Assembly: GCF_003018255.1 (NCBI RefSeq)
Contig: NZ_CP027440.1
DNA length: 64,000 bases
From: Escherichia coli
GTDB lineage: Bacteria > Pseudomonadota > Gammaproteobacteria > Enterobacterales > Enterobacteriaceae
Reading direction: 5' to 3' (one strand)
Program-made: the position numbers
Shown here: positions 49,101 to 55,100 of the stretch, piece by piece
Layout of the letters: every line of letters begins with the position of its first letter
How positions within the stretch are numbered: position 1 is the first letter of the stretch

Positions 49101-52100
49101 ACTTAGCGGTATCGCCAGATAAAGAACGGCTTTGTACAAGCGTCCCGGACTGCCCCCCGCCGCAGAGATAGCGGTAATTTCCGAGTCGGTATACATCTGC
49201 CCTAGCGTCACGCCAACTGACACATACAGTCCAACAGGTAACAACATCTCCAGTGCAATCAGCACTTTGTAGAAAACGATATCCAGCACAACATCAAGAG
49301 CTAATGTCCCATTTGCCGCTTCGGTCAGATAACGCTGTGCGGAGTAGCTGGCGAAAATAAAGATCAGAAAACCGACGATAATCAGCACCAGACGGCGCGT
49401 ACCACGCATGATGTAGTGTTCAACCAGCTTCATCTCACTAACGCCCTCAATCCTTTGAATTTTTATTCATTGATCAGCTTCTGCGCCAGCGCAATGACAT
49501 GATCTACCTCTTCCGGCGTCAGGCTGCCGTCCTTTGCCCACTGAATTTGCCCGGTTTTATTCAGCACCAGAATGGTTGAACTCTGCTCCTGCAAGTGCCA
49601 GGCAACGCGTCCCTGTCCATTGCCGTCAATAACGAATTGCGCCCATGGATAGCGGCGTTTATTTTTTTCGATTTTGCCAACGACAAAATAGCCGGTACCA
49701 AAGATGGCATCATCAGTGTTCACAATGGTGGTGGGCTGAAAACGATCCTGCGGAAAGTTTGCCGCTTCAACTGCTTTAATTAACAGTGAGTTCTTTTTCT
49801 TCGCCGACTTACGCCCGGCGATATACTGAATAATGCGAACTTTTCCCGCCAATTGGGTGCTGTTCCACTTTTGGTAGTGAATTTCGTCGTCGCTATTCCG
49901 AAGCAGCTCGCCGCCTTCCTGGATATAAACGGGGGTAACCGTTTTGCCAGTGACGAAATTGTGTGCCTGCACACCCGGGGCTAAGAGCATGATAATCAGC
50001 GCAATAATCAAACGAGATGACATCATTGCTCCGGTTATAGCGGAAAACGCGAAATCAGCAGTTCTAAGCGCTGGCGAATATCGCTATCCAGCGCCATCGG
50101 TGCATCATACGACTGGCGGTTTTCCATATCATCCGCCACCATGTCGTCGTGTTTATCCCCCATCAGGCCATTAATGGCGGCGAGGAAGCGGGAAATCTGT
50201 AACGCTTCTTTATTTTCAGGATCAAGCGATCTTAGGGTGTCGTAATAAGAAACCTGCTGGCTGATGATTTTTCGCACATCATGAAATTCCCTGCCGGTTA
50301 GTCGCGGTTTGGCAATTATCTCTTTCAGGGTATGCATTTGCTTTTGCCGATAGGCAATAAAACCGCTTACGCTTTCTAACTGGCTATGGCGTAATGAATA
50401 GTTCACCAACGACCAGACCGGAGAGCTTAAATAAACCCGTAACAGGTTGCCGTAATACGACACAATATTTTTCTTACCGTTACGAAAGCCGTCCTGAAAA
50501 CGCCCCAAAAAAACGGTCGTTTTGCCGAATAAAAATCCGGCCTGATGCTTCTTTAAATACAGCCGTTGCGCAAAACGCAGGTGCTTGTAGCGCGCTCGCA
50601 TGTATTTAAATTGTTTGCGCTCATCAGCAGTCAGCTCATCGCCTTTGGCCTGTTTGCATATTAAACGCAGTAACTCCTGGCGATTGACGCCATTGAGCCA
50701 GAATTGCAGGCATAACGCGTAATTATCATGGATGATTTCGGTGGTACAACTTAGTGCGATAGTCGGCGGCAAACTGACCTGTGCATCAACGACATCATCT
50801 TCTTCAATCGCAACAAATAGACGCTCGCTCGCCTCTAGCGGGAAATATTTTCTCATCATCAGGATTTCTCTCCGGCTGCGTTATAAAGCAAGGAATGGCG
50901 CTGAAAAAATGCCTTTAAGGTCGGAATTAGCGAAAGCACCACATCCAGACATTGACCACCGAAATAAGCAAACGCTGCTCCCAGCACGCCAAACAGATGA
51001 CAGAACATGAACAGCAATACGATGTAGCCGATTGAGGCGATGGTTTGCGCCACGAGAAAAGCGCGCTGTTTTCCCGCCATCAATAGCAATGACTCCTGAG
51101 GGAAGCCCAGCATCGAGATCACAATTGCGCCCAGCATCACCTGAATCAGGTCATACGCTTCGAGATACTTAACGCCAAACACCAGCGAAATGAGCGGCTT
51201 GCCGACAATCAACACCGCGAGCGCCACCAGAATACCGATTCCGCCCGCCAGTAAACCTGACTTCACGCCTAACAACCACGGTCTGGTGGTACGCGGATCT
51301 AAACGCATCACCTCTGGGTAAAAACTTTTGCCCAGTAAACCCGCTGGCGTTCCGGCGGCGTCGAAGAATGTCATGGCGATTTTAAATAACCCGGCGGCAG
51401 CGGGTCCTAACACGATCCCCACCAACACTGTGCTGCACGAATTACGCGCCGACCAGATGGAATGGGCAATGTTGGTTGACCAGACAAAACTCCACGCGCC
51501 TTTGATGTGTCGGGCAGACTCAAACAGATTCAATTTGAACGCGTTATGGATATTTCTGCGGCGTAATTCACGTGCGGCAAACCACCAGTACATGGTGCCG
51601 CCAACAAGATTCGAGGCGTACCAGGCAATAACAAAACCCGCAAAACCAAAGTCAAAATACCAGGCAACGACGCTCCCCGCTGCGCGCAGAAAAGGTTTCG
51701 TCGCTTGCTGTACAGCAATTAGATCGAAGCGATCTACCGCACGCAGAATGCCGGTCGGCGTGGAGGAAGCCATTGAAGGAATGAGCGTGCAATACAGCGC
51801 TGCCAGCCAAAAGCTTTGGTCATCCAGACCTAATGAATGGGAAAGAAAAGGGAGTAAGGCAATGCCGCCGACAATCGCCACCGCGCCGCTGACGATATCC
51901 AGCGAGAAGGAAAATGAGACGACATTGCGGAATTGCTGCGGATTATTGTTGGTTAATGCTGGTGTTCCGTACTGAACCACCAGCTGCCATGTCTGAAACT
52001 TAATAAAATCGCTGATCGACTTGGCGTACGATTGTACAATCACCAGTACGCCAAACATGGCGGGCGTCATCCCTTTACCGGCACACGAGAGCGCCAACAG

Positions 52101-55100
52101 ACCCAGCAAAGCGCTCACGACATTACTGGAGCCTAACCAGGCGCTATTGCGAATAATGGTGCGAAACGCGCCATCTGCAAACCAATGTTTGATGTTAAAA
52201 CCCGCCAATTCAGCCTGACCTTATCGTTGATAGTAAAAAGTATCCCGCCAGCCTTAAGTTAAACTTCGGCGGTCAGAAACGATGGCAACCAGAGAAACCG
52301 CCTTCTGTGCCTGTTCCAGCACTTCGCTGTAGGGCGCTCTGGAATCAATCTCAAGAATTTTTGTGCCGTTATAGCCAATCGTCGACATGACGCCGATTTT
52401 GTCCTGCAGCTCGGCATAGTCATGGTCAGGCTTGCGGGAGATGGCAGTATCAATATCAATCCCCAAACGAATGATTAATTCAGGACGGTATTGCGCCATT
52501 TGTTGGTATAAACGCCGTTCGCGCTGCGCCAGAAACATGCTGATTTTCCCGGTCGCACGTTCGACGCCGATCCCCGGTCCGTCATAATAAAAGCCCGAAA
52601 TTTCAGCCTGCGGGAAGCGATCGCTGACCACCAGAACGCCACTTTGCGCCAGTCGCTGAACCTTGCGTAGATTCGCCATTCTTCGCAGCGAGAAGCAGTA
52701 CATAATCACCGCCGCCCATAGCGCTGGAGATTTGGTTTTCATGCTTTGGGTTTTCGAGGATTTGGCCGCCAGTCGCCGTTCGAGCCAGACGCCAACCAAC
52801 GGCAATCGTTTGATTTTGTCGCCGTCTTCGCCCGAGAGCAGCCCCAGATAGCGCCGCTCGGTTTGCCAGTGTTGTTGCAGCGATTTCACCAGGTCGGTGG
52901 TCAGTGTGGATTTACCGGTGCCATCACACCCGACCACCGCAATCAGCCCCGGAATGTAGTTGGGCTGCGGCGCGGTTGTACTATTAACAGTTTGTGTTTG
53001 TAGTGCGTCCATTCGTTAAATCATCCCCTATCCATTTTGGTGATCAGGAAAGCGCGGCGTGAATTGCGCGTAGTGACGCTTGCAGAATTTCATCGGCGGG
53101 TTGCCGACCATCCAGTTCAAGGATCTTTGCACCATTAAATGTCAGTTGCGGCGTAACGGCGATTTTTTCCTGTAACGCCGCCAGTTGGTGGTCAGGTTTA
53201 CGCGCAAACGCGGTTTGTTCATCAATGCCAAGACGAATCAACAATACGGGCAAATAAGACGCCATCCATTGGTACAGCTTCAGCTCGCGCTGCCTTAACA
53301 TTTTTATCCAACCGTTACCGCCCGTGGTTTTTGCCAATTGCGGGCCATCAAAGCGAAAACCCGGCACTTCAACCTGCGGGTAGCGGTCGGTGATGAGCAG
53401 ATAGCCTTGCTGGCTTTTACACAACATTTTGCGAAACTTGTACGCCCGCCAGCAGGAAAGCAGATAGATAACCAGCGCAGTAATATTGCCAGGTGGTGTG
53501 GAGGGCTTTTCGTGCACATGTGCCGCTTTACTTCGCAGATAACGCCCAAAAGGTGCGCCAATAACAGGGAGCTGTGAAATCCATTCGCCAATTCGCCCGG
53601 ACGATTGCCCGAGATAAATGTGTTCTGTTGGCATTGTTGCTGCCAGTTCATTTACCAGGCTTGCCGTGAGGGTCGATTTACCTGAACCATCACATCCTAC
53701 AATGGCAATAACACGCACTGGCGTGGAATTAATTATTGACATATTACGTTGATTCACGAAAAACCCGGCAGCAAATAATGTATTGAATATTACGTGGTCC
53801 GTGCTCAGAATATCCGTTCAACCTTATTGTGACAATGGTTAATTGTGACATTGACCTGAATTACGCTTTCATCAAAAACATATTAACCAAATAAATATTT
53901 TGGATGGATATTTAAATTTAAGGATATATTCATGCAGTCAATAATACCTCCATTAATTGCCGTTATTGGTAGCGATGGTTCAGGCAAGTCAACGGTGTGT
54001 GAACATCTTATTACCGTTGTCGAAAAATATGGTGCTGCCGAAAGAGTTCATTTAGGAAAACAGGCCGGAAATGTCGGTCGTGCAGTGACAAAATTACCGT
54101 TGATGGGAAAGTCTCTGCACAAGACTATTGAAAAAAATGAAGTGAAAACGGCAAAAAAATTGCCGGGTCCGGTTCCGGCCCTGGTGATCACCGCTTTCGT
54201 CGCCCGCCGACTGTTACGCTTTCGTCATATGCTCGCCTGTCGTCGTCGCGGGCTGATTGTCTTAACCGATCGTTATCCTCAGGACCAAATTCCTGGCGCT
54301 TACGATGGTACGGTGTTCCCACCTAACGTTGAAGGCGGCCGGTTTGTCTCATGGCTGGCAAGCCAGGAACGTAAAGCATTTCACTGGATGGCGAGCCATA
54401 AGCCTGATCTGGTCATCAAACTCAATGTTGACCTTGAAGTTGCCTGCGCGCGTAAACCCGACCATAAACGGGAATCGCTGGCGAGGAAGATTGCCATAAC
54501 GCCACAGTTAACCTTTGGCGGTGCACAACTGGTTGATATCGATGCTAATCAGCCACTGGAAAAGGTGCTGGTTGATGCAGAAAAAGCGATTACGGATTTT
54601 ATGACCGCGCGTGGTTATCACTAGTCAAAAATGGAAATGCCCGATCGCCAGGACCGGGCATTTTCAGGAAGGTTAAATCAACTGCAATGCTATCCAGTAC
54701 AACCCACCAGAAAGAAAAATCGCCGCCGGTAAAGTAAATACCCACGCCATCAGGATGCTGGTTACCGTTTTACGCTGTAACCCACCGCCGTCCACCACCA
54801 TCGTTCCTGCTACGGCAGATGAGAGTACGTGTGTTGTGGAGACGGGCATCCCAATATAACTGGCAAGGCCGATAGACACTGCCGCCGTCATTTGTGCCGC
54901 CATGCCTTGCGCATACGTCATGCCGCGCTTACCAATCTTCTCACCGATGGTCATCGCTACACGACGCCAGCCAATCATGGTGCCAATGCCGAGCGCCAGT
55001 GCTACCGCCATGATGATCCATACCGGTGCGTACTCAATGGTGCTTAACATATCGCTGCGCAGTTTTTTCAGCAGGTTCTGGTCTTCTTTACTGACGCCTG

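What the first reader, a model, noticed from the sequence alone, without database searches (positions are those of the whole stretch)
50859..52208. Flippase yghQ appears to require a non-ATG start
The ORF-track start is TTG at 52208 and the first in-frame ATG is at codon 47, inside the first predicted TM segment. The reading frame therefore likely initiates at a non-ATG codon. From memory the K-12 product is shorter, consistent with truncation next to the IS5 insertion there.
Basis: partly seen in the sequence, partly recalled or inferred. Interest (0 to 1): 0.35.

Follow-up and report, generated by a model that had tools for sequence, protein, structure and literature searches.

The report
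yghQ flippase gene starts at TTG
The membrane-transporter gene yghQ in this E. coli really has no usable ATG start, because the genus Escherichia mutated the ancestral ATG to ATC; it most likely begins at a TTG five codons upstream, as public annotation already says, so this is an ordinary feature with a small evolutionary twist.

Summary
The ORF at 52208..50859 (- strand, 449 codons) opens with TTG, five codons after an in-frame TAA, and the first in-frame ATG is codon 47. The interpretation (non-ATG start) is supported. Codons 7-46 are conserved and under purifying selection, and they encode transmembrane helix 1 of a Wzx-like MOP flippase, so ATG47 cannot be the start.

New detail: all 48 non-Escherichia orthologs examined start at an ATG aligned with E. 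coli codon 6. In the Escherichia lineage that codon is ATC. No tested ATG or GTG variant was found in 5,426 complete E. coli genomes. The in-frame TTG upstream, with a TAAGG/AGG Shine-Dalgarno-like sequence, is the most likely start. Weak initiation at the relic ATC cannot be excluded.

NCBI's PGAP pipeline already annotates this TTG start (WP_000896872.1, 449 aa). The K-12 copy uses the same TTG and is shorter (355 codons) only because IS5 removed its C-terminus, so K-12 length says nothing about the start.

Verdict: real and already annotated, low interest. In passing, yghQ lies in a conserved sphingolipid-type gene cluster (spt, ACP, reductase-like, acyl-AMP ligase, LptF/G paralogs) that K-12 has lost.

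The parts
50859..52208 (-). yghQ coding sequence, 449 codons plus TGA. It encodes a MOP-superfamily (Wzx-like) flippase.
   Evidence: ORF list. Pfam Polysacc_synt scores 41.8 bits against a cut-off of 28.2, covering residues 19-280. PGAP annotates the identical CDS in strain 2014C-3338 as WP_000896872.1. The predicted fold matches WzxE with TM 0.73-0.80.
52206..52208 (-). TTG, the annotated and most likely initiation codon.
   Evidence: It is the first ATG/GTG/TTG codon after the in-frame TAA. It is present in every Escherichia-lineage sequence read. The exact 32-mer containing both TTG and ATC occurs in 4335 E. coli genomes, and the ATG1 and GTG1 variants occur in 0. It has the best anti-SD pairing of all candidates, -6.5 kcal/mol.
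52214..52223 (-). Shine-Dalgarno-like stretch TAAGGTCAGG. TAAGG sits 10 nt and AGG 5 nt upstream of TTG. Its first three bases are the in-frame TAA that closes the frame upstream.
   Evidence: Sequence. Duplex energy with the 16S 3' end is -6.5 kcal/mol, in the top ~5% of positions within the gene. AAGGT is conserved across Escherichia lineages, while -45..-17 varies.
52191..52193 (-). Codon 6, ATC (Ile). It sits at the position of the ancestral ATG start.
   Evidence: All 48 non-Escherichia orthologs have ATG here, several with in-frame stops 2-5 codons upstream. All Escherichia sequences have ATC. The ATG variant is found in 0 of 5426 E. coli genomes.
52194..52205 (-). Codons 2-5 (A-G-F-N), a lineage-specific N-terminal extension derived from the ancestral 5' leader (the TGGCTGG-T-run motif).
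   Evidence: Alignment of the yghR-yghQ spacers. The polymorphisms are non-synonymous: G3V in 246 genomes, G3D and N5S. Variable sites are 2 at second and 1 at third codon positions.
52077..52172 (-). Codons 13-44, the predicted transmembrane helix 1.
   Evidence: AlphaFold2 assigns helix H13-44, though pLDDT is low for residues 1-28. The Pfam profile aligns from residue 19 at profile position 2.
52068..52070 (-). First in-frame ATG (codon 47). Rejected as the start.
   Evidence: It lies in the loop after helix 1. The codons upstream of it are under purifying selection. Its SD-like AAAGGG has 0 nt of spacing.
52254..52256 (-). Stop codon of the upstream gene yghR, 45 nt before the TTG. No promoter-like site lies in between.
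50857..50861 (-). TGATG overlap: the yghQ stop shares one base with the ATG of the downstream 274-aa gene, an arrangement typical of translational coupling.
   Evidence: ORF coordinates. The same adjacent gene pair is present in all 48 non-Escherichia orthologous loci (L006-L054 except L044).
51139..51140 (.). Position where K-12 diverges. The IS5 end joins after codon 355 of yghQ, and K-12 lacks window 42754-51139.
   Evidence: Base-by-base comparison and blastn of K-12 locus L002 against the window. PGAP note: 'missing C-terminus'.

Best explanation
yghQ of Escherichia is an intact, selectively maintained MOP-flippase gene with no ATG from which the full protein can be made. The ancestral start, an ATG conserved in every other genus that carries the gene, became ATC (now Ile6) on the Escherichia stem. 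Translation most likely starts at the in-frame UUG five codons upstream (52208), read as fMet by initiator tRNA and positioned by a TAAGG/AGG Shine-Dalgarno-like sequence 5-10 nt upstream. This adds a short, unconstrained MAGFN extension ahead of transmembrane helix 1. The UUG and the extension come from the ancestral untranslated leader. Loss of one 9-nt TGGCTGGTA repeat unit and a 4-T run put the UUG in frame, and a small deletion created TAAGG.

Shown: the sequence facts, the position of the ancestral ATG, purifying selection on codons 7-46 and on the whole gene, and the fixation of TTG and ATC in E. coli. Inferred: that UUG rather than AUC is the codon used, and the order of the mutational steps.
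For: - TTG start and first ATG at codon 47.
- 48 of 48 non-Escherichia orthologs have ATG at the codon-6 position. Hafnia, Serratia ureilytica, Tatumella, Rosenbergiella, Erwinia rhapontici and Pantoea coffeiphila have in-frame stops 2-5 codons upstream.
- E. coli, E. whittamii, Escherichia sp. E1V33, MOD1-EC7003 and a more distant Escherichia-like contig (89% aa identity) all have TTG...ATC.
- In 5426 complete E. coli genomes, 4618 carry the locus. 4335 have the exact TTG..ATC 32-mer, 246 the G3V variant and 1 the N5S variant. The ATG6, ATG1 and GTG1 variants occur in none.
- dN/dS is 0.02-0.04 within Escherichia.
- Codons 7-46 have 18 third-position, 4 first-position and 0 second-position variable sites.
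- K7, F10, D12, G13, R16 and N21 are invariant in 23 orthologs.
- Anti-SD pairing is best for TTG1 (-6.5 kcal/mol), against -5.3 for ATC6 and -4.2 with zero spacing for ATG47.
- UUG belongs to the 10-100%-of-AUG class and AUC to the 1-2% class. Only AUU is confirmed as a natural non-canonical start in E. coli (Hecht et al., bioRxiv 10.1101/063800).
- PGAP independently calls the same TTG start in the identical strain and in K-12.
Against: - There is no direct evidence for the N-terminus. yghQ was absent from the held supplements of a tetracycline TIS-profiling paper and an N-terminomics paper, and no Ribo-RET supplement was available.
- Codons 2-5 show no protein-level constraint (G3 to V or D, N5 to S). 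That fits a dispensable extension, but it fits an untranslated leader with initiation at ATC6 equally well.
- ATC6 has its own G-rich GGCGGG 7 nt upstream (-5.3 kcal/mol).
- The TTG SD score is only in the top ~5% of positions in the gene, which is not exceptional.
- 36 of the 4618 locus-bearing genomes were not resolved at these codons.
Confidence: 0.78

Rival explanations
1. Initiation occurs at the relic AUC (codon 6), giving the same 444-residue protein as in other genera at very low efficiency. On this view the upstream TTG is only part of the leader and is in frame by accident.
For: ATC occupies exactly the ancestral start position. GGCGGG lies 7 nt upstream, pairing at -5.3 kcal/mol. 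Codons 2-5 carry non-synonymous polymorphisms at appreciable frequency and show no third-position bias. AUC can initiate at about 1-2% of AUG with Met at the N-terminus.
Against: AUC is several-fold to ~100-fold weaker than UUG in the same context, and no natural E. coli gene is confirmed to use it. TTG, its in-frame 4-T spacing and the AAGGT upstream are retained in all Escherichia lineages read, whereas the T-run length and frame vary in other genera. TTG has the better SD pairing.
Confidence: 0.15
2. Translation starts at an internal codon (ATG47, ATG51 or GTG31), and the upstream 46 codons are not translated in Escherichia.
For: ATG47 is the first ATG. AAAGGG precedes it and pairs at -5.1 kcal/mol relative to ATG51.
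Against: Codons 7-46 show a clear coding signature within Escherichia (18/4/0 variable sites by codon position, one amino-acid change) and are highly conserved across genera. They form transmembrane helix 1, which aligns to the Pfam family profile from position 2 and to WzxE over 425 columns. The SD spacing for ATG47 is 0 nt. TTG34 is TTA and TTG38 is CTG in some Escherichia sequences.
Confidence: 0.03
3. After losing its ATG, yghQ became an untranslated, decaying pseudogene in Escherichia.
For: The ancestral start is lost in the whole genus. K-12 tolerates a truncated copy. No function is known, and the K-12 deletion gives only a 2-fold change in chlorhexidine MIC (PMC8170033).
Against: dN/dS is 0.02-0.04 across deep Escherichia lineages with dS up to 0.57. 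The reading frame was open over its full length in every non-K-12 Escherichia sequence read; 4157 of the 4618 locus-bearing genomes align over at least 80% of the 1701-nt query, but their reading frames were not checked. PGAP does not flag it as a pseudogene in the non-K-12 records examined.
Confidence: 0.04

Closest known systems
Ordinary UUG-initiated E. coli genes (about 3% of K-12 genes)
   Same: An in-frame TTG preceded by an SD-like sequence, with no ATG that would preserve the conserved N-terminus. Annotation pipelines already call it.
   Different: Here the UUG is demonstrably secondary. The orthologous ATG is conserved in every other genus and sits five codons downstream, where Escherichia has ATC.
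infC and pcnB, the confirmed non-canonical AUU starts of E. coli (Hecht et al.)
   Same: A near-cognate AUH codon sits at the position where initiation would be expected. This is relevant to the rival in which AUC6 is used.
   Different: No autoregulatory logic is known for yghQ. An in-frame canonical UUG is available upstream, so a non-canonical start is not needed.
Start-codon turnover and compensation in prokaryotes (comparative-genomics literature, cited from memory: Belinky, Rogozin and Koonin 2017)
   Same: A lineage-specific loss of ATG, with initiation relocated to a nearby in-frame near-cognate codon and accompanying changes in the SD region.
   Different: This is a single-gene case reconstructed here from about 55 loci. 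The order and adaptive value of the steps were not tested.
WzxE, MurJ and MATE transporters (MOP superfamily)
   Same: The predicted fold matches WzxE at TM 0.73-0.80 over ~425 columns. Pfam Polysacc_synt scores above its threshold. The N-terminal helix is part of the fold.
   Different: Only 16-18% identity to WzxE. The protein is far below the NCBIfam PRK10459 equivalog cut-off (34 bits against 273). Its genomic context is a sphingolipid-type cluster rather than an O-antigen, ECA or colanic-acid cluster.
Caulobacter crescentus sphingolipid region (CC_1152-CC_1168), with LptC2/F2/G2 and the 'potential flippase' CC_1166 (PMC11324152)
   Same: A flippase-like gene is linked to spt, ACP, a reductase, an acyl-activating enzyme and second copies of LptF and LptG.
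   Different: Homology of YghQ to CC_1166 was not tested here. No lipid product is known for E. coli.

Membership tests
UUG-initiated protein-coding gene | No in-frame ATG upstream of, or at, the conserved N-terminus | tested here: met
   The first ATG is codon 47. The conserved, constrained region begins at codon 7.
UUG-initiated protein-coding gene | An in-frame TTG with an SD-like sequence at functional spacing | tested here: met
   TAAGG lies 10 nt and AGG 5 nt upstream. Pairing of -6.5 kcal/mol is the best of 11 candidate codons.
UUG-initiated protein-coding gene | An experimentally determined N-terminus or initiation footprint at the TTG | not testable with these tools
   yghQ was not found in the held supplements of the TIS-profiling and N-terminomics papers.
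MOP flippase superfamily (PST/Wzx-like) | Sequence match to a family profile above the curated threshold | tested here: met
   Pfam PF01943 scores 41.8 bits (cut-off 28.2) and PF13440 scores 31.6 bits (cut-off 23).
MOP flippase superfamily (PST/Wzx-like) | An all-helical MOP fold that includes the N-terminal helix | tested here: met
   The AF2 model has pTM 0.70. The top PDB matches are WzxE (TM 0.73-0.80), MATE and MurJ, all at probability 1.00. The model is low-confidence for residues 1-28.
MOP flippase superfamily (PST/Wzx-like) | Lipid-linked substrate translocation activity | not testable with these tools
   No biochemical data. The K-12 copy is truncated.
NCBIfam PRK10459 (MOP flippase family protein equivalog) | Score at or above the equivalog cut-off | tested here: not met
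   34.1 bits against a cut-off of 273. YghQ is not a member of that equivalog.
Sphingolipid-cluster flippase (Caulobacter CC_1166-like) | Conserved linkage to spt, ACP, reductase, acyl-activating enzyme and LptF2/G2 | tested here: met
   spt-like, CerR-like, FAAL, LptF/G paralogs and hyp274 lie next to yghQ in most of the 48 non-Escherichia loci, across several families. PGAP names are and Pfam matches.
Sphingolipid-cluster flippase (Caulobacter CC_1166-like) | Sequence homology to CC_1166, or a demonstrated sphingolipid substrate | not tested
   The CC_1166 sequence was not retrieved. The role of CC_1166 is itself only proposed (PMC11324152).

The most novel reading that the evidence does not exclude
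The Escherichia stem underwent a compensated relocation of the yghQ start. The universally conserved AUG was destroyed (to AUC) and initiation moved to a UUG recruited from the ancestral leader, helped by a repeat-unit deletion and a newly formed TAAGG Shine-Dalgarno sequence. This permanently lowered or re-tuned translation of the flippase of a sphingolipid-type export cluster. The TGGCTG-repeat/T-run spacer conserved in other Enterobacterales would then be a translational control element that Escherichia partly dismantled.
Probability: 0.3. Interest if true: 0.35.

Novelty: already known. Interest (0 to 1): 0.15.

Why it matters
Practically, the existing 449-aa TTG-start annotation can be trusted. 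ATG47 should not be used for cloning or modelling, because it would delete transmembrane helix 1. K-12 yghQ (355 aa, including ASKA and Keio reagents) is a C-terminally truncated remnant and a poor model for this protein.

The genus-wide ATG-to-ATC change is a clean, datable example of start-codon turnover, and simple reporter mutations could test it. The more consequential point lies outside the finding itself. Most E. coli carry yghQ inside a conserved sphingolipid-type synthesis and export cluster that K-12 lacks, so the annotation 'lipopolysaccharide biosynthesis protein' is probably misleading.

Tried and rejected
- Looked for direct initiation-site evidence. yghQ/b2983 is absent from the held supplements of the TetRP paper (PMC4909307) and the TRAINSPOTTER N-terminomics paper (PMC13245402). 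No supplements are held for the Ribo-RET preprint.
- A full-text search for yghQ gave 12 papers, and none concerns its start.
- An Rfam scan of the yghR-yghQ spacer found only a chance-level hit (E = 0.65, a Dictyostelium snoRNA).
- A promoter/terminator scan found no promoter-like site in the spacer, and terminator-like hits were within about two SD of the shuffle expectation (8 found; shuffles 4.5, sd 2.1).
- Searched 5426 E. coli genomes for revertant or alternative starts (ATG at codon 6, ATG or GTG at codon 1). There were none on the native background. 36 locus-bearing genomes with other local variants were not inspected.
- Rejected ATG47, ATG51, GTG31, TTG34 and TTG38 as starts on conservation, structure and SD grounds.
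- Rejected pseudogenisation on dN/dS.
- Codons 2-5 could not discriminate TTG1 from ATC6. There are too few sites, and the pattern fits both a dispensable extension and a leader.
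Full report
**1. The observation**

The - strand ORF 52208..50859 is 449 codons. Read from the sequence, the frame is closed by TAA at 52223-52221. The first ATG/GTG/TTG codon is TTG at 52208-52206. The frame then reads TTG GCG GGT TTT AAC ATC AAA CAT TGG TTT ..., and the first ATG is codon 47 (52070-52068), followed by ATG51.

The only detail to amend concerns the position of ATG47. An AlphaFold2 model built on 23 orthologs places helix 1 at residues 13-44 and a loop at 45-48 (pLDDT is low for residues 1-28). ATG47 therefore lies just after the first transmembrane helix rather than inside it. Starting there would remove that helix entirely.

**2. What the gene is**

The product matches Pfam Polysacc_synt at 41.8 bits (cut-off 28.2), from residue 19 at profile position 2. 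It also matches Polysacc_synt_3. The model's best solved-structure matches are the lipid III flippase WzxE (TM 0.73-0.80 over ~425 columns), followed by MATE and MurJ transporters. It is a MOP-superfamily, Wzx-like flippase. It is far below the NCBIfam PRK10459 equivalog cut-off (34 bits against 273), so it is not a member of that particular family.

The window is 100% identical over this region to E. coli 2014C-3338. There PGAP annotates exactly the same 1350-nt CDS (WP_000896872.1, 'lipopolysaccharide biosynthesis protein'), that is, the same TTG start.

**3. ATG47 is not the start**

- In an alignment of 23 orthologs (70-89% identity), K7, F10, D12, G13, R16, N21, A23, L25 and S27 are invariant.
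- Eight Escherichia-lineage sequences were compared: window, K-12, four other E. coli or Escherichia species, a more distant Escherichia-like contig, and a G3V allele. Codons 7-46 contain 22 variable sites: 18 at third positions, 4 at first positions, none at second positions, with a single amino-acid change. This is a clear coding signature.
- Whole-gene dN/dS within this set is 0.02-0.04, with dS up to 0.57. The gene is therefore maintained by selection and must be translated from upstream of codon 7.
- The SD-like AAAGGG before ATG47 has zero spacing.

**4. Where orthologs start**

I fetched 52 orthologous loci from one genome per species and lined up the start regions. All 48 non-Escherichia loci have ATG at the position of E. 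coli codon 6, followed by the conserved K-(H/N/R)-W-F-S-D-G. These loci span Pseudocitrobacter, Citrobacter, Shimwellia, Pluralibacter, Hafnia, Serratia, Erwinia, Pantoea, Rahnella, Sodalis, Tatumella, Rosenbergiella, Klebsiella indica, Mangrovibacter, Cedecea, the Rhodanobacteraceae genera Dyella, Luteibacter and Rhodanobacter, and a Sphingomonas. Several have in-frame stop codons two to five codons upstream (Hafnia, Serratia ureilytica, both Tatumella, Erwinia rhapontici, Rosenbergiella, Pantoea coffeiphila), so that ATG is their start.

In E. coli, E. whittamii, Escherichia sp. E1V33, Escherichia sp. MOD1-EC7003 and a contig encoding an 89%-identical protein (L055), this codon is ATC. All of these have TTG five codons upstream. 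The ancestral ATG was therefore lost on the Escherichia stem. Orthologs do start at an ATG, but at one that Escherichia no longer has.

**5. The E. coli population**

- Of 5426 complete genomes, 4618 carry the locus, and all 4618 contain the 61-nt start region at 95% identity or better.
- The exact 32-mer spanning TTG to ATC is present in 4335 genomes.
- A GGT-to-GTT variant (G3V) is present in 246, and an AAC-to-AGC variant (N5S) in 1.
- The same 32-mer with ATG at codon 6, or with ATG or GTG at codon 1, is found in none.
- 36 genomes with other local variants were not examined.

**6. Which codon is used**

This step is inferred. Four points favour TTG1:
- It is a canonical minor start. Hecht et al. 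place UUG in the 10-100%-of-AUG class and AUC in the 1-2% class, and only AUU (infC, pcnB) is a confirmed natural non-canonical start in E. coli.
- It has the best pairing to the 16S 3' end of the 11 in-frame candidates: -6.5 kcal/mol through TAAGG..AGG, against -5.3 for ATC6.
- AAGGT-N9-TTG and the in-frame 4-T run are retained in all Escherichia lineages read. By contrast, -45..-17 varies, and in other genera the T-run length and frame vary.
- PGAP makes the same call.

Against TTG1, or at least not for it, codons 2-5 show no protein-level constraint (G3 to V or D, N5 to S). That fits a dispensable extension, but it fits an untranslated leader with weak initiation at ATC6 equally well. I put about 0.78 on TTG1, 0.15 on ATC6 (alone or in addition), and the remainder on internal starts or pseudogenisation.

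**7. How the new start arose**

This is an inference from the alignment. In many Enterobacterales the yghR-yghQ spacer reads ...GATAACCTGGTCTGGCTGAA(T/G)TGGCTGGTATGGCTGG-T4-6-ACC-ATG. E. coli reads GATAAGGTC(A/T)GGCTGAA-TTGGCGGG-TTTT-AAC-ATC. Relative to the common form, Escherichia:
- lacks one 9-nt TGGCTGGTA unit;
- has a 4-T run, which puts the TTG in frame;
- has a small deletion that creates TAAGG;
- in most E. coli, has a T-to-A change that creates AGG 5 nt from the TTG (strain L003 and contig L055 keep CTGG).

Serratia proteamaculans and S. liquefaciens have ATG-GCT-GGT-TTT-AC(T/C)-ATG, an in-frame upstream ATG at the same place. The upstream codon is therefore an old feature of the leader.

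**8. K-12**

The K-12 copy has an identical 5' region and the same TTG. It is colinear with the window up to 51140. It then runs into the IS5 end (GGAAGGTGCGAATAAG...), which forms TAG immediately after codon 355. K-12 sequence resumes at window 42753, so K-12 lacks window 42754-51139. PGAP flags it as 'missing C-terminus'.

**9. Comparison with what is known, and novelty**

A TTG start is ordinary (about 3% of E. coli genes), and this one is already in public annotation. What this work adds is that the TTG is secondary to a genus-wide loss of a universally conserved ATG. That is a tidy example of start-codon turnover, a known phenomenon. No experimental initiation-site data for yghQ were found. 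I rate it 'already known' with low interest.

**10. Context noticed on the way**

The genes yghS-yghR-yghQ, a 274-aa gene (TGATG overlap with yghQ), a YtfJ-family gene, and LptF-like and LptG-like genes lie head-to-tail on the - strand. Convergent with them are genes for an AMP-binding acyl ligase, an NAD-epimerase/dehydratase-family protein, an acyl carrier protein and a serine palmitoyltransferase. yghO follows. The linkage is conserved in nearly all 48 non-Escherichia orthologous loci, including Rhodanobacteraceae.

The Caulobacter sphingolipid region likewise contains second copies of LptC, LptF and LptG and a 'potential flippase', CC_1166 (PMC11324152). A 2024 paper states that no sphingolipid flippase has yet been identified (PMC11087976). 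YghQ is thus a candidate sphingolipid-cluster flippase rather than an LPS protein. This was not pursued further.

Noticed in passing
window 41651-54624: yghQ lies in a conserved sphingolipid-type cluster. It holds yghO, an AMP-binding acyl ligase (43156-44889 +), an NAD-epimerase/dehydratase-family gene (to 45800 +), an ACP, and serine palmitoyltransferase (46080-47252 +). It also holds LptG-like (47287-48447 -), LptF-like (48363-49433 -), YtfJ-family (49463-50026 -), a 274-aa unknown (50035-50859 -), yghQ, and the dTMP-kinase-like yghR, yghS and yghT. The linkage is conserved in most of the 48 non-Escherichia orthologous loci and resembles the Caulobacter sphingolipid region with LptF2/G2 and a putative flippase (PMC11324152). 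The PGAP names 'lptF', 'lptG' and 'lipopolysaccharide biosynthesis protein' are probably misleading here.
   Followed up: partly
window 42754-51139: K-12 lacks this 8.4-kb stretch and has IS5 in its place. It has lost the 3' end of yghQ, the 274-aa gene, the YtfJ-like gene, the LptF/G paralogs, spt, ACP, the reductase-like gene, the acyl ligase and the first ~40 nt of yghO. K-12 is therefore a natural deletion mutant of the whole cluster.
   Followed up: yes
window 52209-52253 and loci L007-L053 upstream of position 6001: The yghR-yghQ spacer of many Enterobacterales carries two or three direct TGGCTG(G) repeats at 9-nt spacing, followed by a run of 4-6 T just before the ATG. It is conserved at the DNA level while its reading frame varies, and an ATG often sits in the last repeat. 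It is non-coding and its function is unknown: possibly a translational coupling or standby site, or a protein-binding site. There is no Rfam match.
   Followed up: partly
window 50859-52208 versus L003, L004, L005: Synonymous divergence at yghQ is unusually high between E. coli strains: dS is 0.11 against K-12 and 0.39 against E. coli SCPM-O-B-8794, close to the 0.57 seen against E. whittamii. Only 73 of 4618 genomes are 99% identical or better to the window allele. This suggests deep allelic lineages or recombination at this locus.
   Followed up: no
window 52221-52256: yghR and yghQ are in the same reading frame. The yghR stop (TAA, 52256-52254) is followed 33 nt later by a second in-frame TAA (52223-52221), which aligns with the TGATAA yghR stop of other genera. 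Escherichia yghR may therefore have acquired an earlier stop.
   Followed up: no
window 50857-50861: The yghQ stop and the start of the downstream 274-aa gene overlap as TGATG. That gene has no Pfam or NCBIfam match, yet it follows yghQ in all 48 non-Escherichia orthologous loci, including Sphingomonas. It is an uncharacterised obligate partner of the flippase.
   Followed up: partly
L060 18259-19310 (strain 2014C-3338; corresponds to the glc operon in the window below ~40000): PGAP marks glcE as frameshifted in the strain whose yghQ region is identical to the window. This was not checked in the window itself.
   Followed up: no
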